Assembly (NCBI GenBank): GCA_918797485.1
Contig: CAKKNE010000003.1
Span: 5,022,001 to 5,086,000, forward strand
Source: Pelagomonas calceolata
Lineage: Eukaryota
DNA: 64,000 nt
Reading direction: 5' to 3'
Part shown: piece after piece, positions 664 to 62,810 of the stretch
How the letters are laid out: every line of letters starts with the position of its first letter
Numbering within the stretch: position 1 is the stretch's first letter
The notes under the pieces: generated by a model
What the model was told of the DNA's origin: nothing
The model's input: the letters and a program-made list of their open reading frames with translations, nothing else
Database searches by the model: none
Made by a program: the position numbers and the translations under genes

Positions 664-790
664 TGTACCATGGTACCGTAGGTACCGTAGGTACCGTAGG
701 TACTACTACTGCGGTACTGCGGTACTTGCTGGTACTGCGGTACCTACGGTACTAGTCTGGTACTGTACAAAGAGCTCGTACCGTGGTACC
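664..790. promoter_or_regulatory. GTAC array (GGTACCGTA-type units) upstream of the NSF-like gene
   Basis: gtaccatggtaccgtaggtaccgtaggtaccgtaggtac...gcggtactgcggtac...gtaccgtggtacc, 115-240 bp upstream of the ATG at 549. A regulatory role is not shown. Confidence 0.7.
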
Positions 791-3350: not shown

Positions 3351-4311
3351 TGCGAGCAAATCAAAATACACCTAATTAGGGATATTTAGAGCGAGGCGGC
3401 GCGGGCGGCGTGCCGCTAGTGTTCAAACCCGCGTCTACCCGCACGTTCCTAACTTGAACCTCTAACTTGAACCCTGATCTTAACCCTAACCTCACCACCC
3501 CGCCCCCCTGGTGGCCACGTGGGTCGACCTGGTGGGTACGGGGCCACTTAAAGCGCGTGCGGTAGCACGTGCTAAAAAGCCAATCAACTTGAAATTGAGA
3601 TGCTGAATCTAAAGTGATTTTTCAGCGATCTCAGCTTTGGTATGTGCTTGGATCTGATGAGCTGGGTACAATAAATGCACAATGCAGCTAAGGGTCACTG
3701 ACACGGACCACACGGTGACGGTCACGGTCATGGTAAAACACGTCGAGGAAAGAGCCACCAAGATGCATGAATCTCTTCTGTAAATGCAGTAATTTAGTTC
3801 TCGCCCCCGTTCGAATCTGACCATAGAACAGCGCAGCGGTCCGCGCGAGCCCTGGACGATTTTGGTGCACTTGTGCAGCTGCTGAAGACGGGCCTGTGTG
3901 GCCCGTGAGGCCTGCAAACTATAGTACGGTGAATACACCTATTCTCCTTACTTACCTACTTACTCAGGCTTACCCTACACACAACGAATCGCCACCGGCG
4001 CCAGTCTAAATTCACTATGTTACTAGTATTATCACTAAATTACATTAATGAAACTATGTACTATTTGGGAGTCAATTCTAAGACTTATGGGGTTAGCCTC
4101 ACTTCATCGGGGCAGACGATCTGCCAGTGCGCCCCCGGGCCGTACTGTTCACAGTGCTGGGCATAGTTTGCCAGTGTGTCCGAGGGTTCTAAGTTGGTAA
4201 TGATGGCGAACTCTATACTAGTAGACCCGCCTCACCTCGGGCAGGCTCGACACACTGGCAGACACACTCAGCCCACCCAGACTTCCACCCAGCCGGGCGA
4301 CTCGTTGTAAT

Positions 4312-6309: not shown

Positions 6310-6390
6310 TGCGCCCCAAGGATATGCAAGCCTTGGCTGGCGGTATTTTTACGGCAGGCACTCGAGTAAGTTGGTGAGAGAGCAACCCAC

Positions 6391-6535
6391 TAGAGAGAGA
6401 AACCTACTAGCCCTTCCTACCCTAGATATGTATCTCCCACTCTCTAAATTTGAGTCTATATATTGAGTGTCTATCGACGCTACGGTGTAACCAATTTACT
6501 ATAAGACACTCTCGTAGTTGGCTTGGCTCAGCCTC
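6391..6535 (-). repeat. dispersed repeat family A, copy 1 (others 10836-10989, 34788-34957, 49000-49157, 62545-62698)
   Basis: Shared TAGAGAGAGAAACC...CCCTAGATATGTATCTCCCACTCTCTAAATTTGAGTCTATA...ACACTCTCGTAGT; the (CT)n end is fixed and the other end varies. Confidence 0.9.
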
Positions 6536-7520
6536 CGCCGAAATGACGTGGAGCCCATTTCGCTATTCGTCTACACCTTGTCGAGCGCACCGTTTGACGC
6601 CCGCGTTTACAATCAAACCTCATTGCACTACAAAACCCTTATGGTCATCGCATCGCCCGGGGGAAAAAAGCCTGCCCCCATCAGCCCTTGGGGCACGGAC
6701 GGCGGCGCGGCCCTTACGGGGCACCCAGGCAGCCGCACCGCCCACGCCGGCACGCTGGATAATCACCCGGCGTGCCGGCGTGGGAGCTACTGGTAGGCAT
6801 TACTGGTAGTAGGCAGAGAGATACTAGATAGCCCACGGGCAATGGGCATGCCGTTCCTCGCATGTATCGCACGACCGGGTCTGACTCGGAATCTGGCTCT
6901 GATGGGGAGGAGGAGGACGACACTTGATCTCCGCGGGATTTCTGAGCTCATGGTCCGACCGGGCGTGCGCGAGGGCCTCGCGAACGCGTCATGGCGGCGT
7001 TCGGCGCGGCGCGACATGTTGGGCAAGTAGGCGATTCATCCTCGGCTTCCTCGCAATTCAACGGGTCGACGGGCCTTCATTGGCGATGTTGACTCACCCC
7101 AGAAATTCAAGCTGCTTCCGATGGCAACTCTTCGGGTCTTCCGTCGGCGCAATGTCGTGAACGCGAGGGTGTTTTTCGCGACTCCCCCGCGGGCGCGGCG
7201 GCGGGCCGGCGGCCGGCTACGGAGATTCTCGCCGGCGGCGGCACTCGGGCACGACTCCACGGAGCGGCGGCGCGGCGGGATCCCGTATGCCTTGACGAGC
7301 TCTGGGTCGGGTCTCAAGCAAAGCGCCTCCGCGTCCGCGTTCAGCAGAATCAAGGTTGTGTGGCGGCGGTTCCCTTTTTTTTTCCCGCACATCGCTGCAC
7401 GACCTCTGCGACGAGTCTCCTGGGGCGGGGAGGGGTCCCGCAAGACCGCGCGCAAAACCCGTCGGTTAAGCTTAGTGCTTCACAGCGGACCCGCACGGCC
7501 ATTTGGCATCGGGATCGCCG

Positions 7521-8803
7521 CGTACGCTGTACCAGCGCGCTGCGCGTTCCTCGCCCCGGTTGTTACTTCCTCAGGGCGGCCAATGGGCCGCGTAACCAGC
7601 TTTTGGGCACCGCTCGTCGCGCTGGCGCCGCGCACTGCATAGGGCTTTCCAGCGCGATTTGGGCTTTTGGGGCCTCACGTCGCCGCGTCGCGTCGGCATT
7701 GGTAGGTTTTTGGACGCGAAGCTCATAGGTAGCATAGCCATGGCTGACCGGGCGGGCTTGGGCAGGCGACGCCGGAATCGCTCGCGGTAGACGCGTCGAG
7801 ACGGCCCGATCGCGGACCTGTTGCATTGACTAATACGCTATCCCTGGAGCCGCACGGCTCTTCGGCGTCGACGCACCCATACCGACGGCTGATCCCGCAC
7901 CTCTTTGGGATCTTCCGACTGCGGAAGCTCGTGGGCGCCTTCTTTGCGGTACCGCTCCCGAGGGCCGACACCGGCACCGGCGCGGACGGCCTCGTTATTG
8001 GAAGATTTTCGAACTGGAGAGTCGGTAGCATCACGGCGCCCTTTGGTGGTCGTGGCGGACCCTGTTGGCGGCGTTTATGTCGGGCTCGTGATGAGTTGTA
8101 ACCAGGAGCCGGCCGCCTTTCGTCTAGGTCACGCCCAGGCGCAATGTAATGTATTCATACTGGTCTATTACTCCGCCCGCCCTACTTGGGCGAAGGCTTT
8201 CGCGAGGGCTTGCGCTATGAGTCTCCCTAGAGGCCTCTAGACCATGCCCGGAGCCAACAGGTCCGCCGCGAGCTCCAATGGCCGCAGTGATGCTACCGAC
8301 TTGGCCGCGGACCCGCTGCGCCATCGTCGAGGCCGTCCGCGCCGGTGCCGGTGTCGGCCCTCGGGAGCCCCACTGAGGAGAAGGCTCCCATGACCTAACC
8401 CAATCAATACATGTCGGAGAGGTGCGGGATCGGCCGTCGGTATGGGTGCGTCGACGCCGAAGAGCCGTGCGGCTCCAGGGATAGCGTATTAGTCAATGCA
8501 ACAGGTCCGCGATCGGGCCGTCTCGACGCGTCTACCGCGAGCGATTCCGGCGTCGCCTGCCCAAGCCCGCCCGGTCAGCCATGGCTATGCTACCTATGAG
8601 CTTCGCGTCCAAAAACCTACCAATGCCGACGCGACGCGGCGACGTGAGGCCCCAAAAGCCCAAATCGCGCTGGAAAGCCCTATGCAGTGCGCGGCGCCAG
8701 CGCGACGAGCGATGCCCAAAAGCTGGTTACGCGGCCCAGTGGCCGCCCTGAGGAAGGGACAGCCGGGGCGAGGAACGCGCAGCGCGCTGGTATAGCGTAT
8801 GCG
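7521..8803. repeat. about 1.3-kb foldback (long inverted repeat)
   Basis: 7521-7904 is the near-identical reverse complement of 8418-8803; weaker inner arm matches 7955-7994/8327-8368 and about 8021-8070/8252-8300. Confidence 0.9.
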
Positions 8804-9820
8804 CCCTTTTTGATGCCAAGTGAGCCACTTAGACTTTAGGGGCGGATCGCAAAAAGAATTAATAGGCAAAACGGGTTTTTCCGATTATGGGACCCCCCCC
8901 ATAGATCCTAACATGGGAATGTCGGGAGCGCCATGCTTACATATTTGGGACGAGGCGCCGCCTCATCGATCCTCTCCCAGTAGCGAGCTCCCGACATTGA
9001 GAATAGTCTTCCTTCGTTAATCGGGCTACCTACTAGTAACCCACTAGAATCAGGCCCCGGCTGCTCACAGCTTTTACGGCTGCTTGCCGGCCCGTCTCTG
9101 TCAGCGGGCTCTGTCTGGCATCCACACATGACATATACCTGCCGCGGGCGATTTCAGAAATCAAGCGCGGCCCAAAATCGCCCAGGACAGCCATTTTGCG
9201 GAAGTACCGGTGCACAGCGATGCGGCACCGCGTCGGCCGACCTCGCGCGCTCTCACGCGACGCGCTCCGACCGACGCTCGGTTTTTGAGATGCCTACCGC
9301 GGCGCTGGAGGCATTTAGTGAGCCCTATTGCCCCGAACGCGGCCTCGGCCGGTAGTACCAGCGGCCGGCGACGGTCAACATAACGGCGCCACGATGCCAG
9401 GCGTGCGTTTCCAGCCACTGCGATCATATCGAAACCGCGTGGGATCATCGAAGACCGCTTTTGGTTCCGCACCCAAAACGCCAGAAAAAAACGTAGGCGT
9501 CTCGCGGCCGTAACTTTTCACCACCCGATCCGTTTGTTGCACCCTTGGGACCGAACCAGACTTATTGACGTACGCCTAAAGGATGGTGACCCCGCTCAGG
9601 GGTCTGGGGGCGCTCCTAGCGAAATCGGGTTTTAGTGTCCGCCCCGAACTTAGTACTAGTACGTGAGCCATGGCCTATGGTGCGGGACCGCTGTGGCTTG
9701 GCTAAATGGGCGTCTTGAGTACCCACGGACGAGCGGTGAGGAACCGCGGACTTGCCTATCGGACGGGGGACCGTGTCCGATGCTGCAGTACAGCTCCTAA
9801 CAGATAATCGGGCGGCTGTC

Positions 9821-10729: not shown

Positions 10730-10835
10730 CCCGCGATCATGATGCTGCTGTGTAAACTTCTGGTAAGATCATCTCACGGACTTTCTCACGGTTCGAGTTC
10801 AACTCAGGCTACCGTGTGACATCATGATATTTCCA

Positions 10836-10989
10836 AGCACGCCACGTACGAGAGTGTTGTACTTTAATTCCCTAGCAAACTGGATTACAAAGTAGCGTCG
10901 TTAGACACTCAATGTATAAACTCAATTTAGAGAGTGGGAGATACATATCTAGGGTAGGAACTTGAAGGGCTAGGGGGTTTCTCTCTCTA
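10836..10989 (+). repeat. family A copy carrying a CTTGAA insertion, followed by a GTAC array
   Basis: AGGAA[CTTGAA]GGGCTAG here versus AGGAAGGGCTAG at 62671; followed by tacggtaccgtaggtaccgtaggtaccgtacc. Confidence 0.85.
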
Positions 10990-11362
10990 CTACGGTACCG
11001 TAGGTACCGTAGGTACCGTACCGTGACTGCCGCGGCGGTGGGACACCAGTAGGGCCTGATTATTCCAAGCTCATGATAGTCCCTTATTCTGAACTCTCGC
11101 AGCGCAATGTGCCGAGATTTAGTACTATCTCTAGTGACTATTGTTGGGATGATTGGTCACACTAAGGCATGCCTGATTATCGATGAACAGTGGGATGGAA
11201 GGAGCCGATTTGACATCATCGAATTTCTGTTCAGCTTGAGCGTGTGCTTGATCGAACGCGTTTTGCACTGAAGAACCTACAGGAGGTACCTACGGTACCT
11301 ACGGTACCGTAGGTACAGCATGAGCATGACATTGTGCGCATGCTGATTGATTTCCGGCAGCC

Positions 11363-25916: not shown

Positions 25917-27089
25917 CTCTTTTTTGTCCGGGTCGGTTGGTTTTTCAGCTGGTGCCGTTCGTCTTAGCCGCTGGTGCGCGAGCAACAGACATGCGGCCTC
26001 AGCAGGCCTGGGCCGCCCCGCACGTTCGCCGCAATCTCACCGCGAAAAACGGATACACGGACGAAGTCGGCACAACGTGGAGAACTTAATTAAAACTCGC
26101 AGGGTTTAAAACCCGCTCCTCTCCGTCCAGTGGCGGGGTGGTCTCCCGAGACCTCCCTAGGCGCCCGCCCCCTAAGCCCGAATCGCCTATCGTCATTCTG
26201 GAAACGCAAGCCTCTCAGGCTTACGCGTCGCGCGTCGAGGGCCCCGGGCCAGCCTGGGAGTTCCCTCTCTGAGGCTCTCTCAAAGTCCCCCCCCGCAGGA
26301 TCTAGGAGAGGCTCTTCGTTATCGAGGTACGACCTCATCAAGTACCTCATCCCGGCCTGGTGACCGCCGCCCCCTCGCGGCGCCTCGCGCGACCCGTAAA
26401 TTTTTATCGTTGATGATTTTTTACGCCTGTTTTGCCCATTGAGGTCACCTGTCCTGTGAGCGTAGCGAAGGCAGGACGGACTGGCCTCTGAGTGGGCAAA
26501 AGAGGTGTAAAAAATCACTCAACTTATATCATCATCGGTCAAACAGGCCCTCTGACGCCGTAAAATTTTGAAAAAGACCATCATGGCCGCGGTGGCGCCG
26601 GGCGCGGTCTCTCCAAGCGGAGTCGCCGCCGCAGCGCGCGCGGGTCGAACACGACCGGCCGCGCGCGCGGCCTGGACTAGCGGTGCGGCGCCGCCCTGTT
26701 CTTCTTGTCCTTGTTCAACGATTGGTGGTTAGCGAGAGGGGAAACCCACACGCGAGGCGGTGGCGAGCTCCTTTCTTTCGTTCACCTTTTTCGGCTCCGG
26801 CGTTGTGCGGCCGCTGCAGCCCGCGCCGCTGGACGGTCGGTAACGGCTAGTCTCGAGGTACTCCGGGAGCGCATGGACGCGATCGCCCGTGGTATCCACT
26901 CGGCCGTAATCCGCGAAGCCTCTGCGCTCGTCTTGAAGTCTTTCGCGCATCCTCCCCCTTTGCTCCTCCCCCTTTTGCTCTTGGGTTTTCGTCTGTCTAT
27001 GTTTAAGTAAATCTTTTTTTGCGTTCGAGCAGCTCTGCGGGCGCGTTTGCGCTGAGCACTGCTTTAGGAAGGCTTAAAACGGCCGCCCA

Positions 27090-27163
27090 GCATGCGTAGC
27101 TCAGTTGGTTAGAGCGTGGGTCTAATAAACCCAAGGTCGTGGGTTCGACCCCCTCCGAGAGTA
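27090..27163 (+). tRNA. tRNA-Ile(AAT), probably a pseudogene (broken acceptor stem)
   Basis: D arm TAGCTCAGTTGGTTAGAGC, anticodon arm TGGGT-CTAATAA-ACCCA, T loop GGTTCGACCC, downstream T-run. Acceptor GCATGCG/CGAGAGT has 2 mismatches and the T stem has a T-T mismatch. Confidence 0.75.
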
Positions 27164-27182
27164 TTATTATTTTTTTTTGTTT

Positions 27183-31179: not shown

Positions 31180-32159
31180 TGCGATGCATAGGGAAATAGA
31201 GTGTGTAGCTCCGGACTTCCCCGGCAGCGTAGTCACGGTGTAGTCGTCTAACGAAATAGTTTCTCCCATGTTTGATGGGGTATGTGACGGGGAATTGCGT
31301 CCGTCAATAAAAGGTGACTCAGGATGATAATAGTTAGGAGTGAGAGGCGACTTCCCCCTACTAAGGGGATATCGGAGTACCCTAGGATGGGAAGTAGCCT
31401 AGGCGGGTAATACAAGTACGGGTTGTGCTTGGATACGTCTCAGTTGAACCTTGGGATCCTACTAGATGTGTATTTCCATTGCACTCCCCCATTGTCGTGA
31501 TCGTGATCAGATTGCGATAATCATGAAATCGCGGCAAGGAGGATAACATTTAAGTTTAACATTTCAATAAGGTGGATCATCCTGATGGTACCGCAGTACC
31601 GACAGTTATTCAATTAGTAGTTGGTCATTTAGTGCTTGTTCATTTAGTGGTGTGGTTGTTTTGTGCGTTTAGTTGTTTTTGTTTTAGGCGACTTCCCCCT
31701 ACTAAGGGGATATCGGAGTACCCTAGGATGGGAAGTAGCCTAGGCGGGTAATACAAGTACGGGTTGTGCTTGGATACGTCTCAGTTGAACCTTGGGATCC
31801 TACTAGATGTGTATTTCCATTGCACTCCCCCATTGTCGTGATCGTGATCAGATTGCGATAATCATGAAATCGCGGCAAGGAGGATAACATTTAAGTTTAA
31901 CATTTCAATAAGGTGGATCATCCTGATGGTACCGCAGTACCGACAGTTATTCAGTGTGGTTGGTCAGTGCTTGTTCATTTAGTGGTGTGGTTGTTTTGTG
32001 CGTTTAGTTGTTTTTGTTTTAGGCGACTTCCCCCTACTAAGGGGATATCGGAGTACCCTAGGATGGGAAGTAGCCTAGGCGGGTAATACAAGTACGGGTT
32101 GTGCTTGGATACGTCTCAGTTGAACCTTGGGATCCTACTAGATGTGTATTTCCATTGCA
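31180..32159 (-). mobile_element. Copia-like LTR retrotransposon remnant: one complete ~300-bp LTR plus two tandem ~340-bp duplications; 5-bp TSD GCCCA
   Basis: Units start at 31345, 31686 and 32021. On the minus strand a PPT (AATGGGGGAG) directly precedes TGCAATGGAAATA and the LTR ends TATTTCCCTATGCA. GCCCA flanks both sides (31175-31179, 32160-32164). A related LTR start lies at 62279-62347. Confidence 0.75.
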
Positions 32160-32346
32160 GCCCAGTGGGTCCGGTTATTTAATATTAAATAATTATCCTA
32201 AGTGAAAGTGCCACATAACACTTCACATAACATGACCCGTCGACGGGATATAAGTACTAAGGAAGACCTACTTGGGTAAAAATGCAAAGGCCGCCGCGGC
32301 TTGGACTCTAAGGCACACTAAAACACAAGACACACGCGGTCGCCCA

Positions 32347-34624: not shown

Positions 34625-34974
34625 TACCGCAGTCGCGGTGAGGCTGCCCAGAGACGACGCACGTTATGAGTAAGATGTACGGTCTCTCTCGGGGGCAGGG
34701 ACCGCATTCCGGCTCCCGGGTCAGCAGCCCGCACCGGAGTGATTCACAGATGAGCGTACCGGTACCGTGGTACTTGCTGGCACCACGTAGAGAGAGAAAC
34801 CACTAGCCTTTCCTACCCTAGATATGTATCTCCCACTCTCTAATATTTGAGTCTATACATTGAGTGCCAAAAGCACTACGGTGTAACAACAGTTCACTAT
34901 AAAACACTCTCGTAGTCAGGCCTATCAGCCCTAGGCTGGTTAGCTAGGACCCTGCTACTTTACATAACGCTGAA

Positions 34975-35491: not shown

Positions 35492-35732
35492 GCTGGTACC
35501 GTAGGATACCTACGGTACCGTAGGTACGCCCTCTACAGTCCCGACCATCGTTCCTGCGGTACCGGCACCGTGGTAGTACGTGCACGTCGTGGCGCCAGTT
35601 TGCTTGGAGACGACGTATCATACGTTGCACAAGCTCTAATTGGCATTGCCTTCGTCCAACTTTTTCCCCCAACACTCACTCTCGAAGCCTAGGACCCTCG
35701 CTTATTTGATGACGTGCAACATTGTTGGAAGG

Positions 35733-36916
35733 ATGCTGGGCCAGTTTTCCCTCCTCGTTTCCATCGCAGGCGGTACCACGCACCTGGGCCCCGATATTTT
35801 CACGCGGCAGCGAATCCACGACTGCGGAGCTTCCATGATGCGCCGCGCGGGTGCTGAGATGGACTGGGGCGCAAAATTTGACGAGTGGCCCGCGATCGCG
35901 CGGGAAATTGACGTGGACGCCACCGCGGCCAGCCGAGACGCCGGCAACGGGTCCGTCTACTACGCAGTCGCACTCATGGTGGACCAGCAGAGTCGGGTCG
36001 AACACACGCGCGAGCTGCTGGCGCGTCACCCGCGGTGGCACGTGTTCAACTCGACGAGCAAGTACAGCGTCGACGTGCTTTACCGCCACTATGTCGGCAT
36101 GGGCCTGCGGCTGCGCGAATTCAAGCTCGAACCGCTCCTGGGCAAGGTCGCGTGGCGCGGGCCGGCGCCGAAGAAACGGAGGAAGAATCGATCGTTGCCG
36201 GTGGATCGGTTTCCGGGACTCCGCCCTTCCGCCGCAGGTGGTGGACTTGCATACGATTCTGCATGCTCGTCCTGGGGTCCGGCCACGCGTACGGCGTCAT
36301 GCTGAACGACGACGTCACTGTCGCTGATGATTTCGAAAGGACGCTGGAGGCGCACCTGCTCCGATTTTCCGGGCCCATGAAGTTCGCAACCTACCGTCTG
36401 GGGCAGTTCGATCTGGGACTGGTGGTCTCGCGCGAGTCGGCGGCGCGCCAGCTGGGCATCATCTGCGAACTAGAGACACTCGACCACTTCCACGACCATT
36501 TCACGAGTCGCACACATCGGTGGCTTCCGCACGTCGTGGGCAACTGCCCGATCACGTACGCCGGTAGGCCCCTAGAAGGCCTGGCGCGCCCGCATGGTGC
36601 GCTCCACGCCAAAAGCAACATTCTCGGCGTGGCGAACGAGGCCTCAGACGCGGAGTTTCTCGCCCGCATCCGCAATCGGCCTCGCGATCGTCCGGGTTTC
36701 TGCGGGTCGGCGTATCCTGGCCGTATTTTCAATCGATCGCACCTTGGTGCCTGGATTCACGCCGATCCCGCCCTACGCCCCGCAAACGCGCCGCTTGGCG
36801 GTCCGCAAGGGACCGTAGCGCGGCCAGCCGCGCCTGATCTCCGAGCCGCGACGACTCACGCCCTCCTCGCGGAGCTCGCGAATCGAGTCGAGGGCCCGGG
36901 TGGGGGAACAGGGTAG
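35733..36916 (+). CDS. GT25-like glycosyltransferase, one intron about 36151-36237
   Basis: YYAVALMVDQQSRVEH.., LLGKVA/WWTCIRFCMLVL..YGVMLNDDVTV..DF; start could be 35709. Confidence 0.5.
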
Positions 36917-36971
36917 TACTCTGCGGAGTACGCATTATTCTGTAACCACCTGTTGGCAATTCCGTTGACCA

Positions 36972-37451
36972 GACTCGGAAAAAAAGAGCCTGAGAATCCC
37001 GCCGGCCCTCAGGCTCGGTTTGGAGCGCCCTCAGGCTATACAAGTTACTAGCCTGAGTATTTCGAGTCATATAAATTAAATAGATGCTAGTAAAAATTCA
37101 GTTAAGGAACTTGAAGCCTGACCCTGAGCCGGAGGAATATCCGAGTCCTAAATAAAAACCGTAGCCGCGGCGTCACGGTACCAGTGACCGTCAGTGACTC
37201 AGGCTAGCCTACCTGAGTACTACTAGTAGAGTGCTACTAACTTGAAACAAATACTTATCACGTTATCGCGGTAAATACATAAATATTTCAAGTTTGTTCG
37301 AGGATTCAATGAGGAAGGAATGATATCCTAGTAATAAAAAGACATAGCCTGAGTACGTCAACTTGAAGCCTGTACTAGTAGCCTAGGATGATACCCAGCC
37401 GGCGCTGCTACTAGTAAAAATGGAGGTGAGGAAACGGCAAAGCAACTTGAA
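36972..37451. other. hotspot of XY-C-rc(XY)-G-XY 8-mers (18 counted) in a convergent spacer
   Basis: Starts at 36972, 36987, 37008, 37030, 37050, 37108, 37140, 37164, 37172, 37198, 37221, 37239, 37287, 37346, 37360, 37373, 37409, 37444. Confidence 0.9.
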
Positions 37452-37566
37452 GTTTCAATCTCCTGACTCGACGAATCAGAAATGGATTCTAGTAGAGGCT
37501 TTATTTATTATCCGATTCGAGTGTGTACATCACAGGAGGCAGCCGCCAGACGCGCCATCCATCGGC

Positions 37567-39610
37567 TTAAAACGAGTAGAGAGCTTCCGCGTACACGTCG
37601 ATCGCGTCGTCTTCGTCCACGCCGAAGTCGCCGCCGCGCCGCCGGCCCGGAGTAGGCGTCGTCGCCGCCGCCGTATCGGGGGTGCCGCCCGCGACGGGTC
37701 GATCGTCATCGTCGTTGTCGAAGAGAATGGCGGCGACGGAGGTAGCGACGGAGGTGAGGGGAGCGAGCGGCGCCGGTGCCGGGGGTTCGTCGAGGACGTG
37801 ATCCGTCGCGGCGGCGACGCGGGCGATGTCGGCGGCGCGCGGCCTGGCGGCGGCATCCCCGAGCGTCCCGAGGACGGCGAGGAGCCAACCGGTCTGGGCC
37901 GTCTGCTCAAGGACGGCGGAGACGTAGTCCGTCGCGACGCCGACGGCCCACGACGGCCCGAGGGGCCAAAAGCCCTCGTGCCAGGCGTTGTGCCCGCCCC
38001 GGTTCGTGCGCACGACGACGACGCGGGGGTTCCGCACGAGCTCCGGCCAGTCGTAGCAGTCGTCGTGCGACACGAGCGGGTCGTCGCGCGCGTGGACGAC
38101 GAGGAGCGGAATGCGCACGTCGCGGAGTCGCTCGCGGCTCGACGCGACGTAGTGCGGCCGCGTGCGCGGGAGTCGGGCCGGCACGGGCGCCAATGGCGCA
38201 CTGGGCCGCCGCCGCCGCGCCGCCGCGCCGGCGCCGTCGTCGAAGCCGGCAAACGAACCCGGCTCGGAACGATTCGACGCGCGGGGGATGGCCGCGACGT
38301 GACGATCGTACATCACGGCCGGGCCGTGCCGCGCGAACGCCAGGACGCGGCGCGCGTGCTCGCGGCGCGCGCGCTCGTCGGCGAGGCCCGGGTCGGCCCT
38401 CGCGTGGCGGAGAATGCACCGTCGCATGCCGCGCGCGAAGACCTTGCGGTACGTCGCGTTTTTCGTCTTGGCGACGAAGTCCGCGGTACGCAGAAAATCC
38501 ATGCAGCCCGCGAGCGTGACGGCCGCGACGAGCGGCGTCGCCTCGCCGGCGGCCGCGAGGTACTGAACCAGCAGGAAGGCGGACGCGGAGTGCGCGACGC
38601 AGAAGATCGGCGCCGCCGGGTTCGACGCGCGGATCGCCTCGACTGCGCGCGCGAGGTCCCGCCACTCGTTCCAGTCGAGCCGCCAGTCGCTGAAGGCGAC
38701 CGCGCGCCAGCCGCGGCTCTCGCAGCGCCGCGCCAGGTGCTTCATGTAGTGGTCGTCGCGCGTGCCGCCGACGCCGTAGAGCAGCAGGACGACCGGCGAC
38801 GTTGGGGACGGCGGCGGCGCGCGCGTCGCGAAGAGGCCGTCGCCGTGCAGGGCGAACTCGTCGCGGTGCGCGACGAGCCAGTCGAGCCAGACCTCGCCGC
38901 CGTCGAACGTCCGGACGGCCTGGCGGCGCCAGCGCACGGGCCGCAGCAGCAGGAAGCTCAGGTCCGCCAGGACGTGCGCGATCACGGTCTGCGCGTGGCG
39001 GCTCGTCAGCCAGAACACGGGCCGAAACTCGCGCGTCGCGAGCCCGGCGCGCTCGACGATCGCCACGTTCCAGAACGTCCGCGTGCAGCTCACGACCGGC
39101 CGCTCGCAGACGCGGACGCGCCAGTGCGCCACCCAGCCCAGCGCGCCGCCGACGACCTGCCCGCGACGCCGGCGATCGCGACCGCGCGCGACGAAATCGC
39201 CCCCCTCGCGCGCGCCCCTCGCGCGGACCGACTTGGACGCGGCCGCGCGCCCAGGCCCAGACGTTCCGCGACACGAGGATGGCCAGCGCGCGCAGCACCT
39301 TGGCGACCGTCCGCCGGCCGGGGCGGCGGCCGAACACCGCGTCGAAGACGTACCGCCGGAGCCATCGCCTGCCGACGACCGCGGCGGCGAACGCGACGAC
39401 GAGGCCCTGGTTCCGCGCGCTCGTCTGCGTCAGCGAGTACGCGACGCTCCGCGCCAGGTCCTTGAGCCCGAACGCGTGGCGGCCCACGTTCACGCCGCGC
39501 CGCCGCCGCAGCAAGAAACGGACGCACGAACGCAGGGCGAGCACCGAGCTAATGACCAGCGTGAGCGCATCCACGAGCGCATTTTTCTCGTCGGGCCAGG
39601 AGGACGGCAT
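37567..39610 (-). CDS. alpha/beta hydrolase, ABHD1/2/3 (YheT) family, at least 1 intron
   Basis: HAQTVIA, DGGEVWLDW, PVVLLLYGVGG, GWRAVAF, VAHSASA, IPLLVVHARDDPLV, GGHNAWHEG. Confidence 0.8.
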
Positions 39611-40714: not shown

Positions 40715-40959
40715 GTGCGACACATCGCAAAGGCAGACGTGTCGCGGCAGCCTGAGCCCGGTATCCGTACCAGGCCGTCCGGGGGCCCGGGTCCCCGGGG
40801 CTTGGCGTTCAACGGCCTCCTTCCACTCATAAAGCTCCTAACTTTGCTCTGGTTCACTATTTTAGTTATTTTCAATTATATCTTGAAACCTGGATAAGGT
40901 ACGAACTTGTTTACCGTAGGTACCGTACCGCATTAGGTACCCGGGCCGTACCGCAGTAC

Positions 40960-41082
40960 CTGCTATGATATGGCCACGGCCCCTTTTCCACATATAAATC
41001 TCCCAAATTTTATCTTAGCTTCACTATCCTAGTCTCATTTATCTTGGTTAGATACCCGGATAGAATAGGCCTAGTGAATACG
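40960..41082 (+). mobile_element. family B element, internally deleted copy (CTGCTATGATATGGCCA...CCTAGTGAATACG) inside a GTAC array
   Basis: Both termini are shared with the 60217-60707 copy; GTAC on the left, GTAGGTAC on the right. Confidence 0.8.
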
Positions 41083-41299
41083 GTAGGTACCTACGGTACC
41101 GTAGGTACCATACCGCAGTAGGTAACGTACCGTAGGTACGGTACCGGTAACCCCCTACTGCGGTACAACAGGCCGAAAATCGCGGTAAAAGCCACGGCCA
41201 CTCCGCTGCGCGGCCCAGTGTCTATCGCGGTTGGGGTTAAAACGCCTCGCCAGCTTGAGCCGTTCGACCACGCACCGACGACAGCGCGCGCGCAGGACG

Positions 41300-46805: not shown

Positions 46806-47780
46806 GTATTCACTAGGCCTACTCTATCCGGGTATTTAACCAAGATAAGTGAGACTAGGATAGTGAAGCTAAGATAAAATTTTGGGAGATTTATAAGTGG
46901 AAAAGAGGCCGTTGCCACAACGGGCGCCAACCCCAGGGACCCCGGACCACGCGCCCCCGCGCCAAAACAACCAAGGGAGGGTGGGAGGGCCAAAAATTCT
47001 TGCTCCTTTGTCCTGCGCTCGCACAATCGGAGCGCTGTTGGACACGAGCAAGTATAAGAAAGTATCTTGCAGCGAGCCACTAGATGTGACGATATTGCTG
47101 CCAAGATACCAAAACATAGCTGACACTGGCAGACCTGAGTCAGCCTTACATAGGTTCGGGACAGCCCTTGGGTCTCTTATTAAAGCTCCTTCTGTAAACA
47201 GAGGGCTGTTGACCCCTCTCATCACGGGCGCCGCGGGATTACAACGATCCACTGATTGGATTCAAAGGTTGAACAAGAAGTTCCGGGGAAAACCCCACCT
47301 TTAGGGGAATTACCATAAGCCCCTTTGGCAGTGCCTGAGCTAAATTGGTAAGACAATTTAGCTCGCCAACAAATCATACAGATTTGCGACAGGTCGAACA
47401 GTCAGTACCACGGGGTCTGGCAACTAGGGGAAAGAAAATTTCCGGAAATTTCGGAAATTTCCACCCCTCTAGATTTCATTTCCTGGAAATTGCTCAACTA
47501 TAGGCCCGGGGTCACGGTGGGAGGGCCAAAAATTCTTGCTCCTTAGTCCTGCGCTCTCACAATCGGAGCGCTATGGGACACGAGCAAGTATAAGGAGGTA
47601 TCTTGTAGCGAGCCACTAGGTGTGACGATATTGCTACCGTGACCAAGATACCAATCATAGCTGACAGACCAGAGTCAGCCTTACAAAGGTTCGGGACAGC
47701 CCCTGGGGTTCTCATTAAAGCTCCTCCTGTAAACAGAGGGTTGTTGAACCCTCTCATCACGGGCCGGGCGCCGCGGGATC
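46806..47780 (-). mobile_element. family B copy with a duplicated ~255-bp internal segment (46981-47238 / 47517-47779)
   Basis: TATTCACTAGGCCTACTCTATCCGGG end as at 60217; the two direct copies differ by substitutions and 5-6-bp indels. Confidence 0.8.
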
Positions 47781-47844
47781 TGAAAACTTGAAAAAGGAAC
47801 TAGCTCCTAAGACTCGGAGCCTTCAAGTTCTCCCTGCTAGTAGG

Positions 47845-48999: not shown

Positions 49000-49645
49000 T
49001 AGAGAGAGAGAAACCCTCTAGCCCTATGTATCTCCCACTCTAAATTTGAGTCTATACACTGGGTGTCTAACGGCGCTACGGTGTAAACCAATTTATAATA
49101 AAACACTCTCGTAGTTGGTTTGGCCCAGCCTCTGGCTGGTGAGCTAGGACCCTGCTATAGCCTGAGCCTGACTCGGAGAGGCTGAGCCTCGTCTGATATT
49201 ATTTTCCATGCGCTTTCAGATGGTTCGACATCCGTGGCTGTTTCGCCATCAGTCATGTTATGCACAGAGCCTGTATCATCGTCTGATGACTCATCGTCTG
49301 ACGACTCAGACAGAAGATTCGGCAGGGAATTGATTGAGAAGATTGATTCATCATCTGATTCATCCGATTCGACGTATGCACCATATGCCTGAAGCGTGGC
49401 CTCATTGGGTATGTCTGGATGCACTGTTTGTCCAACCATGAGGGTGTCACGGTTGCCTGGGGCGCGTGGTCCGGGGGCCCTGGGGTTGGCGCCCGTTGTG
49501 GCAACGGCCTTTTCCACTTATAAATCTCCCAAATTTTATCTTAGCTTCACTATCCTAGTCTCATTTATCCTAGTTAAATACCCGGATAGAATAGGGCGTG
49601 TGAATATACGGTACGGTATTTACGGTACCTACGGTACCGTAGGTA
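49000..49645. mobile_element. back-to-back family A (49000-49157) and family B (49460-49610) copies plus a GTAC array in a divergent promoter
   Basis: Family A (CT)n end faces the ATG at 48855, family B TACG end faces the ATG at 49771; an acidic ORF fragment lies between them. Confidence 0.75.
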
Positions 49646-50738: not shown

Positions 50739-51211
50739 AGTCCCGGGTTCAAGGTACTGCAAGTTCTAGTTGTACTGCCAGTGTCCGAGTCCGCGAACGT
50801 CGCGCCAGTACTTTGCGCCCAGCGCGGAAATTAAGGCCGATTTGACTATTCAGGCATAGTAAACTTTTTGAACAAATTCGGAGATGTCTTGAAAACCCAG
50901 TACGGTTTTCGGACATCTTTTGAAAACCCAGCCTGAGGTTTTTCCGCCCCGCCCCCGGCCCTCATACGCGAGTGCTAGCTTGCGCCAGCCTGAGTTGCGT
51001 TTCGTCCGACCAAGTGGCTGGGAACTCGAATCTCAGATTAGGGGACCGCCCCCGATCTTCAGTCATCTTCCTTAATTAGATTCCTTAATTTATATAACAC
51101 TAGTGGATGAAACTACTCGTGATGTGTACATATCAATTGACAGACAGAGCCCCAGCGTTTAATAGTACTACTAGTAGTAGTAAAATTGGTTCCGAACACC
51201 AGGTCTTTAGA

Positions 51212-51829: not shown

Positions 51830-52055
51830 TGTTGCTGTTGACGCTTGAATCAGGCCCGTGCGTTTTAGTTTTGCGCTATTTTTTAGGTTCCGCAAGCTGT
51901 GCAGCCAGCGCTGCCGTGGCACCTGAGATTGCCTGCGGTACCATGGTAGTATTGGTACCTACCGTAGGTACCGTAGGTACGGGACTCGGCTTCTTACCAG
52001 TAGCTACTGCGGTACCTACGGTACCTACTGCGGTAGCCTAGCGCGCAGTTGGGAT

Positions 52056-58858: not shown

Positions 58859-59576
58859 CAGGCCTCTAAAGGTCCGAATCCAGCGTCACGTCTTCACCGT
58901 CGGGTCTTGGAGCAGGGTCTGCCTGGGGGGGCACTGGAGGGTTGTAATCGTTTGCCACATGCCCAGGCCGCTAACGTTTCGTTGATGCAAAACCCGTTTT
59001 TGCTCTTTTGACCACGCTCCGGGCCGGACCGTGAGTCCGTGACGGTAAACACGTATCACCGATAGGTAGGGTTCTACTGGGTAACTTGAAATAAGATGAA
59101 TTACAACGCTACGATCGAGGTTAGATCGAGGTGAGACAACCGGTCGCCGAGTCTCTAGAGGAAAACTCGACTTTTATTGACCATAGACTGGCATAGTGTA
59201 CTCAACGGATCATGATGATGTCATGATCGTATTGAGATCCATGAACTAAACTAAGGAAGGCCTAACGCGAAGGCACAAGCTGAGCCCCGAGTCCGGAGCT
59301 TCGAACAACTTGAATTACTCAGACGAAAAAAACTTACAAAACTTACAAATGAAGCCTCCCTGGCAGGCTGACGGTGGCTCCACCCAGGAGGCGGTGGACG
59401 CGAGGGAGCCTATCTCGCCGCTTAATTTTAATATTCACACGATCAAGTTAATAACGCGGAGGGCAACGCGCCACGTGCTTCCGATTTCAAAGCTCAAATC
59501 TCCCACCGACCAGGCCTCCCGCCCCGTCCGCCGCACGTGCCCGGCCGCTGTGCAATTTAGTTAGCACGGCCCGCAG

Positions 59577-60117: not shown

Positions 60118-60216
60118 TTCAGGCGCAGGCGGATAGCGTGCAATGCGCCAGCCTCCCTGCGTGCGGCCCCGCTGCAGTACCTTGTGCTTTTGTACCGTAG
60201 GAGGTACCGTAGGTAC

Positions 60217-60707
60217 CGTATTCACTAGGCCTACTCTATCCGGGTATTTAACCAAGATAAGTGAGACTAGGATAGTGAAGCTAAGATAAAAATTTGGGAG
60301 ATTTATAAGTGGAAAAGAGGCCGTTGCCACAACGGGCACCAACCCCCGGGGACCCCGGACCACGCGCCCCCGCGCCAAAACAAACCAAGGGAGGTGTGGC
60401 ACTCCCTAACTTAGCCAGCATCCGCGCCATGTCCTCATATTCGACGCGAATCAAGACACGTCTCAAATCAAGCGTATCAGCACACGGCCTAAGTTTCTCA
60501 CTGGTCTCACCAAACACTTTGTAAGCTATCGCATGTTGCATATGGCTTTTCTCCGTCATCCAGTCGATAACGTCCGCCCATCTAGCATCAAGTTTTGCGC
60601 TCCTCACTAATCTTAAGAATTGGACTTGACTTGCAGCAGGCACATCAGGACTAAAGGGCATGTTCATAGTGGCACTGTCCACAAGAGCCTTGGCCATATC
60701 ATAGCAG
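60217..60707 (-). mobile_element. family B element, 491 bp, flanked by GTAC on both sides
   Basis: + strand: GTAC|CGTATTCACTAGG...TGGCCATATCATAGCAG|GTAC; no terminal inverted repeat beyond C...G. Confidence 0.8.
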
Positions 60708-60799: not shown

Positions 60800-62045
60800 A
60801 TGAGGCTCTTACGAGTGCTCGTCTTGGTGCAAATGGGAGAAGGTCTGATCCAAGGTACGCCAGCCGGCGCGGTGGCTGAGCCGTCGCAGGCTGGCGACGA
60901 GTTGTCGCCTGAGGATGCGCTTCTCTGTGCTCCAGCGCGAAGGAATTTGTCGGTTAGCACTGGCATCCTAAAGATGGCACTATATACCTACAGCTTTGGC
61001 AATTACCGCCACGAAATCTCGCAATATCGCCCGTGGGATGATTTCCACGGTCAGGACTCGCATGGAAATTAAGGAGGGGAGTTGCCTTCAACGGCAGGTT
61101 CTCTCAAAATAATGCGATTTCGTTCGTCCAATGTGACGGAGTATCCACTAGGTGTTGCTATTTCGCACAGGCTGGGACCATCGGTACGTCTTCTGCGACA
61201 CAAGTATCACGCAGAAAATGGTCGCGGACGGATGGATTCAGTGTCTGGTGCCTCCTGGCTACCTCCCGCGGGCCACATTCCAAGTCCATCGCACACGCAA
61301 CGTCAGTGCAGGCTGGGACCTGACCAAGTTTTTCAAATTTGGGCACGTGGCCGCGGTCCTTCGACCCTTTGACTACCTCCTTCACATAGACTTCAGTTTC
61401 ATTGCGACACGTAACAAGTATTTCTACTTTCTACCGCGTTTTGCCGATGTCGAAGCACTCATCCGCACGAAGCCAGAAGTAGAGCTCATCGCACTCAGGC
61501 ACCGTGAGAGGGCTCTCGTTCGCAGCGAGTGGCAAGTAACAACAAAAAACAAAATGGAATTCCAGCATCTAATCTGCCAGTTTGGGCAGGCAATGAGGGC
61601 CAAATTTGGTAGCGAGGCGAGCACTGGCGTCAACCGGTTCTTGTTTCTTAACAACCTTTGGCTAACGCAGGTAGTGGATGTAACACCACTGTTTCTCATG
61701 GGCTTATTTGTCCGCAAGGTCCATAATGTGCCAAAGCTTGATGTGATTTTTGCTGATACAGTCCGCACCCTTGTATCATTTGGCTTGAAACGAGATCAGA
61801 ACGTCTTTCCGCTTGCTCTCTGGAACAGATATGGAAACATGACTTCTATCAAGGTATTAATGTGCGGCAGGAACATTTCAACTGCAGTTTGCCACCCCGC
61901 ACGGAACCCCCCCGCATCGTCGACAATTAGAGATTTTGGCCGCCCCCTCGCCCTCACAGCCCGTTCAGCATGTAATCACACCGGTGAGCACAAGGCCTAC
62001 GACAAAGTGCTCGTCTACGACCCGGGACCCACGCGTATGTCGTGA
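60800..62045 (+). CDS. DUF616-like glycosyltransferase, low GC; intron about 61050-61170
   Basis: ALYTYSFGNYRHEI, FFKFGH, YLLHIDFS, LIALRHRERALVRSE, KRDQNVFPLALW. Confidence 0.6.
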
Positions 62046-62810
62046 CGAAGAGCTTTGCAAGAATTGCGTCGATGTTGGCTCAAGCTGAGCCAGCGCCTCC
62101 CCGAAGCGGCAGAAATATGGCACCGCTCAGCATCGACCTCTGGCTGCGACATCGATTCGGCCACCTTTCACAGAAACTCGTCGATGGCCCGCCCGTGGGA
62201 AACGCATCGGGGAACCAAATGGGAATCGCATTCCAGCGATTGAAATGGACCGGGTGTTGCTGGCGTGCTCGATAGTAGTGCAATGGAAATACACGTCTAG
62301 TAGGATTCCAATGTTCAACTGAGACGTATCCAAGCACACCCGTACTACTAAAAGCTGGTACGCCGAGAGTGTTGTATACTCGAGAATGTATCTCATTGTG
62401 GCTCAACTTGAACAGTGTAACAATTAAATTCCTAGCCTGAGATGGATAGTCCGGGGCCTATGCGTCTAGTGGACTCCGAGTCTTGGGAGGCCAGTAGCCT
62501 GAGGCCGGTAGCACGCATGTGATGCTTGTGGCCACCAATGTCTAACCAGCCTAGGGCTGATAGGCCTGACTGCGAGAGTGTTTTATAGTGAACAGTTGTT
62601 ACACCGTAGTGCTTTTGACACTCGATGTATAGACTCAAATATTAGAGAGTGGGAGATACATATCTAGGGTAGGAAGGGCTAGTAGGTTTCTCTCTCTAGT
62701 ACCTACGGTACCACCTACGGTACCTATACTGCGGTAGGGAGGAGGAATGCGCCGGAGCCTTCACAGTACTTGGAGCGCCACACGCGGCATGAGCCGGCAG
62801 CGTCTGCTTG

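What the first reader, a model, noticed from the sequence alone, without database searches (positions are those of the whole stretch)
36972..37451. Footprint hotspot: a terminator-side spacer built largely from these scars
Seen: 18 rule-obeying 8-mers in about 480 bp between two convergent genes, some abutting (GCCGCGGC-GTCACGGT at 37164-37179). Uniform-composition expectation is 16/4^8 per position, about 0.12 in this length. Inference: repeated insertion-excision cycles at one accessible site grow the spacer 6 bp at a time and leave a record of past transposition. Smaller clusters lie at 3451-4260, 10736-10830, 50776-50995, 59028-59315 and 62405-62503.
Basis: partly seen in the sequence, partly recalled or inferred. 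Interest (0 to 1): 0.7.

Follow-up and report, generated by a model that had tools for sequence, protein, structure and literature searches.

The report
Transposon scar cluster in marine alga
A gap between two genes of a marine microalga holds 18 small palindromic insertions that follow one strict rule and differ between wild populations; they are likely scars left by a jumping gene that was not itself found.

Summary
Confirmed: 18 8-mers of form d-C-revcomp(d)-G-d (d any dinucleotide) at 36972-37451; shuffles give 0.11. They are insertions, not conserved sites. Wild metagenome contigs lack exactly 6 bp at 37239 and 37373. 11 of 14 clean 6-bp indels among fetched loci obey the rule, and in repeat families the unit is the minority, gained state (6 of 6). 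The rule holds across 126 further loci but not in coding DNA. Host is a pelagophyte, likely Pelagomonas. Best reading (0.72): excision scars of a cut-and-paste transposon with a 2-bp target duplication that leaves its terminal C on hairpinned flanks, rejoined by 2-bp microhomology. The element was not found. Corrections: exact units add 108 of 480 bp, so not 'largely'; part of the spacer is a decayed repeat; equal hotspots occur elsewhere; terminator-side bias is mild; deletions also act. The scan noted stereotyped hairpin scars before in Perkinsus and fungi with 7-8-bp duplications; this 2-bp geometry differs.

The parts
36035..36916 (+). 3' part of the left gene (no Pfam family; probably spliced with the ORF at 35640-36305)
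   Evidence: ORF list; RNA reads end near 36970; no Pfam hit
36971..37458 (.). Untranscribed gap between two convergent 3' ends; 45% GC
   Evidence: zero RNA depth in run X21; GC
36972..37115 (.). Six rule units at 36972, 36987, 37008, 37030, 37050, 37108; present in X11 and X14; in X12 the 37008 unit is likely absent and a new unit likely nested in the 36987 unit
   Evidence: tables 2-3; rebuild fits 10 of 10 listed substitutions with a 1-base mismatch in length (indel rows hidden, so inferred)
37140..37147 (.). Unit at a TC dinucleotide, absent in X11, X12, X14, which instead carry a 3-bp AT-C-AT gain at 37137
   Evidence: one search finds one rule-based solution that reproduces the wild allele
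37164..37205 (.). Units at 37164, 37172, 37198 and a 4-bp-duplication form (37185-37198); about 30 bp net missing in X11 and X14, likely a 33-bp deletion between GGC repeats plus a 3-bp CG-G-CG gain at 37161; X13 has the reference allele
   Evidence: depth bins, loose end and record 12; the deletion reading is inference
37221..37294 (.). Units at 37221, 37239, 37287; the 37239 unit is absent in contigs of all four wild runs
37312..37465 (+). Decayed copy of a dispersed repeat (my family D) carrying units at 37346, 37360, 37373, 37409, 37444 and 3-bp forms at 37320, 37329, 37388; 37320 and 37373 are absent in contigs of all four wild runs
   Evidence: BLAST to L034 12004-12140, E 4e-5 raw and 6e-12 after stripping units; alignment
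37567..39132 (-). Right gene, alpha/beta hydrolase; relatives in Chrysophaeum, Aureococcus and Pelagophyceae sp.
   Evidence: Pfam; homologues; RNA direction
47785..47829 (+). Another copy of repeat D with three units; removing two restores the family sequence
10959..10966 (+). Unit gained in one copy of repeat family B (other copies have the bare AA)

Best explanation
The 18 units are independent 6-bp insertions at dinucleotides, likely the excision scars of an unidentified cut-and-paste transposon that would duplicate 2 bp on insertion and begin with C and end with G. Inferred steps: the element sits as x-d-[C...G]-d-y; the first nick falls one base inside each 5' end, so a C stays on each flank; each flank is sealed into a hairpin with C at the tip; a host nuclease opens it about 2 nt past the tip; the two overhangs, ending in revcomp(d) and d, anneal over 2 bp and are filled in, giving d-C-revcomp(d)-G-d. 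If d is palindromic an inner annealing gives the 3-bp forms d-C-d or d-G-d. Scars pile up where DNA is untranscribed and neutral, probably helped by local re-insertion or open chromatin; short deletions remove some. Shown: rule, insertion polarity, polymorphism, non-coding restriction, short-range clustering. Inferred: transposon, nick position, hairpin, cause of clustering.
For: Rule specificity: centre pair C/G 746 against at most 184 for other pairs in 310,906 non-redundant low-GC bases; all ten classes of d occur. Unrelated flanks around copies of the same 8-mer. Exact 6-bp absence at 37239 and 37373 in contigs of 4 of 4 wild runs from two studies. 11 of 14 clean 6-bp indels among 80 clean indels in long alignments obey the rule. 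In four repeat families with 9-125 copies, 6 of 6 minority 6-bp insertions obey it and 0 of 1 minority 6-bp deletion. Non-slippage 3-bp gains are seen at palindromic d (37137, 37161, 37320; 4 of 9 3-bp indels), as the annealing model requires. A minor 3-bp-duplication version has the same C/G centre (20 against a mean of 7 for other pairs). C and G are not flank-derived: 65 of 742 units have C..G flanks. No excess in 55,170 coding bases (17 against 9-20). Hairpin opening plus microhomology joining is the established route for Ac/Ds footprints (PMC5873905, passages).
Against: No element with C..G inverted ends and a 2-bp duplication that recurs at unrelated sites, and no transposase, in the window or 463 kb of loci. 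The outcome is far more uniform than measured hairpin repair: only the 6-bp product and a few 9-bp forms are enriched among the variants tested, whereas Ds gave 28 footprints in 128 clones. The 3-bp forms show no bulk excess after masking. A nick one base inside the element with a flank hairpin was not reported in the passages I read. CG and GC are depleted as d (0.31, 0.35), unexplained.
Confidence: 0.72

Rival explanations
1. Transposon-free break repair: a nuclease leaving 2-nt 5' overhangs (SPO11 or topoisomerase VI type, recalled) cuts open chromatin, the overhangs are filled, one untemplated C is added (a REV1-like dCMP transferase, recalled), the ends seal into hairpins and rejoin over 2 bp.
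For: Explains any-dinucleotide sites, symmetry, uniform outcome and the missing element. SPO11 is present in Pelagomonas calceolata (PMC9481584, passages).
Against: Needs several steps for which I know no precedent. Units are abundant in loci of about 50% GC (2-3 per kb over whole loci, hotspots of 19 per 480 bp), which resemble the low-GC, presumably recombination-poor centromeric troughs of PMC9481584; that these loci are such troughs is inferred from GC only. Other elements with C..G ends do occur in this DNA.
Confidence: 0.15
2. Abortive integration or replication template switching at a transposon end produces the unit without a full insertion and excision.
For: No filled allele was seen at any polymorphic unit; the rate is high, five rule events against at most four listed substitutions between X11 and the window in 681 bp.
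Against: Needs both copies of d and both terminal bases in place, which is the donor-site arrangement; filled alleles would be short-lived and rarely assembled in metagenome contigs.
Confidence: 0.07
3. The 8-mers are spread passively by local duplication or inside a repeat.
For: Part of the spacer is a repeat copy; the same 8-mers recur.
Against: Flanks are unrelated and the spacer has no internal homology; other copies of the repeat lack these units and carry their own at other positions.
Confidence: 0.03
4. Selected protein-binding or termination signals between convergent genes.
For: Cluster fills the untranscribed gap; mild terminator-side bias.
Against: Ten unrelated words share only a formation rule; units are gained and polymorphic; no Rfam match of note.
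Confidence: 0.03

Closest known systems
Ac/Ds (hAT) excision footprints (PMC5873905, passages)
   Same: Palindromic P-nucleotides from flank hairpins, joined through microhomology, with biased outcomes.
   Different: There the palindrome is centred on the complement of the flank base next to the element; here on a constant C or G that is not flank-derived. Duplication 2 bp, not 8 (8 bp recalled). One outcome dominates far more strongly.
Muta1 (MULE), Transib and RAG flank hairpins (PMC5499845, passages; PMC9435367, first of two parts of the text)
   Same: Hairpin on the flank opened by host enzymes; an active RAG-like element with CAC termini exists in the pelagophyte Aureococcus.
   Different: Muta1's hairpin is 43+43 nt, so flush, and most of its excisions are precise; AanRAGL makes 5-bp duplications. 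The flush 2-bp form is at chance level here (1283, uniform expectation about 1214).
Tc1/mariner footprints (recalled; PMC4561436 seen as search listing only)
   Same: Terminal element bases stay between two copies of a 2-bp duplication.
   Different: TA only and no inverted copy in the middle; here any dinucleotide and an inverted centre; d-CG-d and d-C-d at non-palindromic d are not enriched.
CMC superfamily (EnSpm/CACTA, Mirage, Chapaev), recalled
   Same: 2-4-bp duplications of free sequence and termini starting with C; a CACAG-ended element with a 4-bp duplication lies at window 7481-9695.
   Different: No member with a 2-bp duplication and no transposase was found; five paper searches gave no description of this footprint for the group.
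Stereotyped hairpin scar fields noted earlier by this scan in Perkinsus and fungi (unchecked AI notes)
   Same: Genome-wide, one dominant palindromic insertion, element unseen.
   Different: Those use 7-8-bp duplications trimmed by one base; that geometry is absent here for n of 6 or more.

Membership tests
hAT excision footprints | Palindrome centred on the complement of the flank base (would need empty sites C-N-N-G here) | tested here: not met
   65 of 742 units have C..G flanks; flank bias only 1.23-fold
hAT excision footprints | 8-bp target duplication | tested here: not met
   empty alleles show a 2-bp site; no n=6-10 forms
hAT excision footprints | Palindromic nucleotides and microhomology joint | tested here: met
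   unit = d-C-revcomp(d) overlapping revcomp(d)-G-d
Transib/RAG or MULE | Flush hairpin, 5-bp or long duplication | tested here: not met
   flush 2-bp form at chance; 6 flush 5-bp forms, not examined further, against 746 C/G units
Tc1/mariner | TA-only target; footprint of terminal bases without inversion | tested here: not met
   all dinucleotides used; non-inverted forms not enriched
CMC (EnSpm/CACTA, Mirage, Chapaev) | 2-4-bp duplication of free sequence (recalled) | tested here: met
   2-bp dominant, minor 3-bp and 4-bp forms with the same centre; read from scars, not from an element
CMC (EnSpm/CACTA, Mirage, Chapaev) | Inverted termini beginning CAC (recalled) | tested here: inconclusive
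   only the first base (C) is recorded in scars; no recurring element with a 2-bp duplication found
CMC (EnSpm/CACTA, Mirage, Chapaev) | CMC-type DDE transposase | tested here: inconclusive
   no transposase family in 153 window ORFs and 77 locus ORFs; only about 0.5 Mb seen; whole genome not held
Any hairpin-forming transposon | Hairpin intermediate and nick position shown in vitro | not testable with these tools
   needs the protein

The most novel reading that the evidence does not exclude
A still-active transposase in a globally abundant marine alga cuts with an undescribed geometry (nick one base inside the element, hairpin on the flank), and the host repairs it to one fixed 6-bp scar, so that tens of thousands of scars form a readable genome-wide log of transposition that locally outpaces point mutation. 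The bolder alternative is that no element is involved and a host nuclease plus dCMP addition writes the scars.
Probability: 0.45. Interest if true: 0.75.

Novelty: new variant of a known kind. Interest (0 to 1): 0.55.

Why it matters
Excision footprints are normally diverse and invisible in genomes. Here one rule lets each past event be read from sequence alone, giving a map of where an element went, near-neutral markers for wild populations, and a mutation class that in this spacer separates alleles as often as substitutions do. The constant C and G predict a cleavage geometry distinct from hAT, MULE and RAG, and tell exactly what element to look for (C..G ends, 2-bp duplication). The spacer itself has no sign of function.

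Tried and rejected
Whole genome not held; records behind loci not searchable. Exact spacer pattern found nothing in metagenome contigs, so no orthologous spacer sequence was obtained; wild alleles come from read laying tables in which 34 and 41 indel rows were hidden. Repeat pattern found nothing in viral contigs and one bacterial match without units (L126). Inverted-repeat scans gave single candidates (L063, L049, L018, L075, L070) that did not recur at unrelated sites; the CTGTGTGGAAATC family has about 8-bp duplications and the window element 4 bp. Presence/absence search found no filled site with a 2-bp duplication. In-frame units in coding DNA: no excess and no 2-residue indel in the hydrolase alleles. 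Bulk test for 3-bp forms negative. X14 changes at 37443-37499 could not be resolved into rule units. Rfam: nothing. Rows dropped before counts: duplicate or foreign loci L123, L126, L074, L012, L045, plus L047, L016, L065; repeat family E (2 copies) from the polarity count; GC and CG classes from the spacing and densest-window counts. Paper searches for a prior description found none; the library lacks most subscription journals, PMC5684705 was not held, and no supplement was read (the repeat notes of PMC9481584 may bear on the element).

Full report
Observation. There are 18 such 8-mers in 36972-37451, against a shuffle mean of 0.11 and maximum of 2 in 2000. The other 15 centre pairs give 0-1 each. 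In the window's 22,149 low-GC bases there are 82 against 4.9 by shuffle, so the spacer is about ten times denser than other non-coding DNA (P 2e-14). The listed smaller clusters exist.

Setting. The flanking hydrolase has its closest named relatives in Chrysophaeum, Aureococcus and Pelagophyceae sp. and near-identical copies in marine metagenomes; the stretch is held by a cultured organism and by marine metagenomes of several studies. High-GC genes and loci near 50% GC fit Pelagomonas calceolata as described in PMC9481584 (passages); the species is my inference. RNA reads show convergent transcripts and zero depth at 36971-37458. The right part, 37312-37465, is a decayed copy of a dispersed repeat.

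The units are gained insertions. Copies of the same 8-mer have unrelated flanks and the spacer has no internal homology. Contigs of four wild runs from two studies lack 6 bp at 37239 and 37373 and 3 bp at 37320; rebuilt alleles equal the rule's empty sites. At 37137-37147 three runs lack the TC unit and carry a 3-bp gain the window lacks, so gains occurred on both lineages. Ten substitutions listed for X12 at 36993-37013 fit a nested gain plus loss of the 37008 unit, with a 1-base discrepancy and hidden rows (inferred). X11 and X14 are 48 and 38 bp shorter over the stretch. Among 80 clean indels in long alignments of fetched loci, 11 of 14 6-bp indels and 4 of 9 3-bp indels obey the rule. In repeat families with 9-125 copies, 6 of 6 minority 6-bp insertions obey it and 0 of 1 minority 6-bp deletion.

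Extent. In 126 loci fetched through a repeat, the C/G centre counts 809 against 100-237 for other pairs; 746 against at most 184 after removing duplicates. Pfam-verified low-GC coding DNA shows no excess, 17 against 9-20 in 55,170 bases, although the insertion keeps frame. There is almost no target preference beyond low use of CG and GC. At about 1.2 excess units per kb of window, a genome of about 32 Mb (size recalled) would hold some tens of thousands; this is an extrapolation.

Hotspot. Pair counts per base fall from 12.6 at 8-32 bp to about 6 at 60-130 bp and about 3 beyond 230 bp, so units cluster, though finite spacer length contributes. Tandem doubles are twice the neighbouring level, as expected from two copies of d per unit. 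Two other loci reach 19 per 480 bp (L043, L034). With rough gene calls, density is 4.3 per kb in convergent, 4.1 in tandem and 3.1 in divergent spacers, and 157 against 112 on the terminator half of tandem spacers (P 0.007). The terminator side is therefore mildly favoured, not required. Exact units add 108 of 480 bp; stripping reveals one more. About 30 bp net are missing at 37162-37205 in X11 and X14, likely a deletion between GGC repeats (inferred from depth bins), while X13 has the reference allele. Whether clustering reflects local hopping, open chromatin or only age and neutrality is open.

Mechanism. The unit is two overlapping three-part palindromes, d-C-revcomp(d) and revcomp(d)-G-d, the product expected if both flanks of an excised element are hairpins with a C at the tip, opened about 2 nt past it and annealed over the 2-bp duplication. 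The C and G are not flank bases (65 of 742 with C..G flanks), so they would be the element's terminal bases, left by a nick one base inside. The model allows 3-bp products only at palindromic d, which is what the non-slippage 3-bp polymorphisms show, though bulk counts do not resolve them. A minor 3-bp-duplication form has the same centre (20 against about 7). Against it: no such element or transposase was found in about 0.5 Mb, and the outcome is more uniform than in Ds assays. The main rival is element-free repair of 2-nt-overhang breaks with C addition; abundant units in low-GC loci speak weakly against a meiotic source.

Comparison. It works like hAT, MULE and RAG/Transib hairpin footprints (PMC5873905 and PMC5499845, passages; PMC9435367, first half of the text) but fails the hAT, Transib and Tc1/mariner membership tests. 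A CMC-type element is the best lead from recalled features and is unproven. Introner passages for Aureococcus give 8-bp duplications (PMC9860276), a different element. Seven searches found no description of this footprint. The scan's own notes hold similar scar fields with 7-8-bp duplications in Perkinsus and fungi (unchecked) and nothing for this genome, sequence or geometry.

Verdict. Real, polymorphic, neutral scar cluster; a new variant of a known kind; best explanation 0.72; interest 0.55.

Noticed in passing
L037 3726-12206: 8.5-kb element with long inverted ends and a 4-bp duplication, inserted inside a rule unit (empty allele in L112); ORFs look by eye like a packaging ATPase and capsid proteins, so possibly a polinton-like virus; the two ORFs scanned had no Pfam hit.
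   Followed up: partly
window 7481-9695: 2.2-kb element with CACAG..CTGTG ends, a 4-bp duplication and a 495-bp inner inverted repeat; Chapaev-like by recalled features; no Pfam hit.
   Followed up: partly
window 664-760, 10990-11024, 11285-11317, 35495-35530, 40914-41136, 49608-49645, 51940-52035, 60192-60220, 62700-62730: Arrays of a 9-bp unit TA-CCG-TA-GG-TA in both orientations, the strongest enriched words in low-GC DNA, flanking repeat families A and B; possibly a second, TA- or GGTACC-specific scar type.
   Followed up: no
L043 985-1420; window 6389-6535, 10873-10990, 34788-34957, 41002-41100, 46806-46980, 49025-49157, 49459-49614, 60218-60394, 62542-62700: Repeat families A and B appear to be the two ends of one roughly 450-bp element bracketed by the 9-bp arrays.
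   Followed up: no
L020 1408-1538 and 1828-1926; L060 2448-2648: Short elements with CTGTGTGGAAATC inverted ends and about 8-bp duplications, introner-like.
   Followed up: no
L034 11990-12620; L043 430-910; L016 6440-6960: The densest scar clusters lie beside copies or likely copies of repeat D and its TAAA-rich end, as the window's spacer does; association not tested statistically.
   Followed up: partly
window 37185-37198; L011 1827 and L050 540: The same 14-bp 4-bp-duplication form occurs at two unrelated sites.
   Followed up: no
window 27085-27165: tRNA-Ile-like sequence by eye that ARAGORN did not call.
   Followed up: no
window 31345-32288: Three tandem copies of a roughly 340-bp unit, related to 62277-62346.
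   Followed up: no
window 61152-62045 and L009: The ORF stops near a repeat-rich stretch at about 62045, while L009 encodes the same protein continuing to 850 residues.
   Followed up: no
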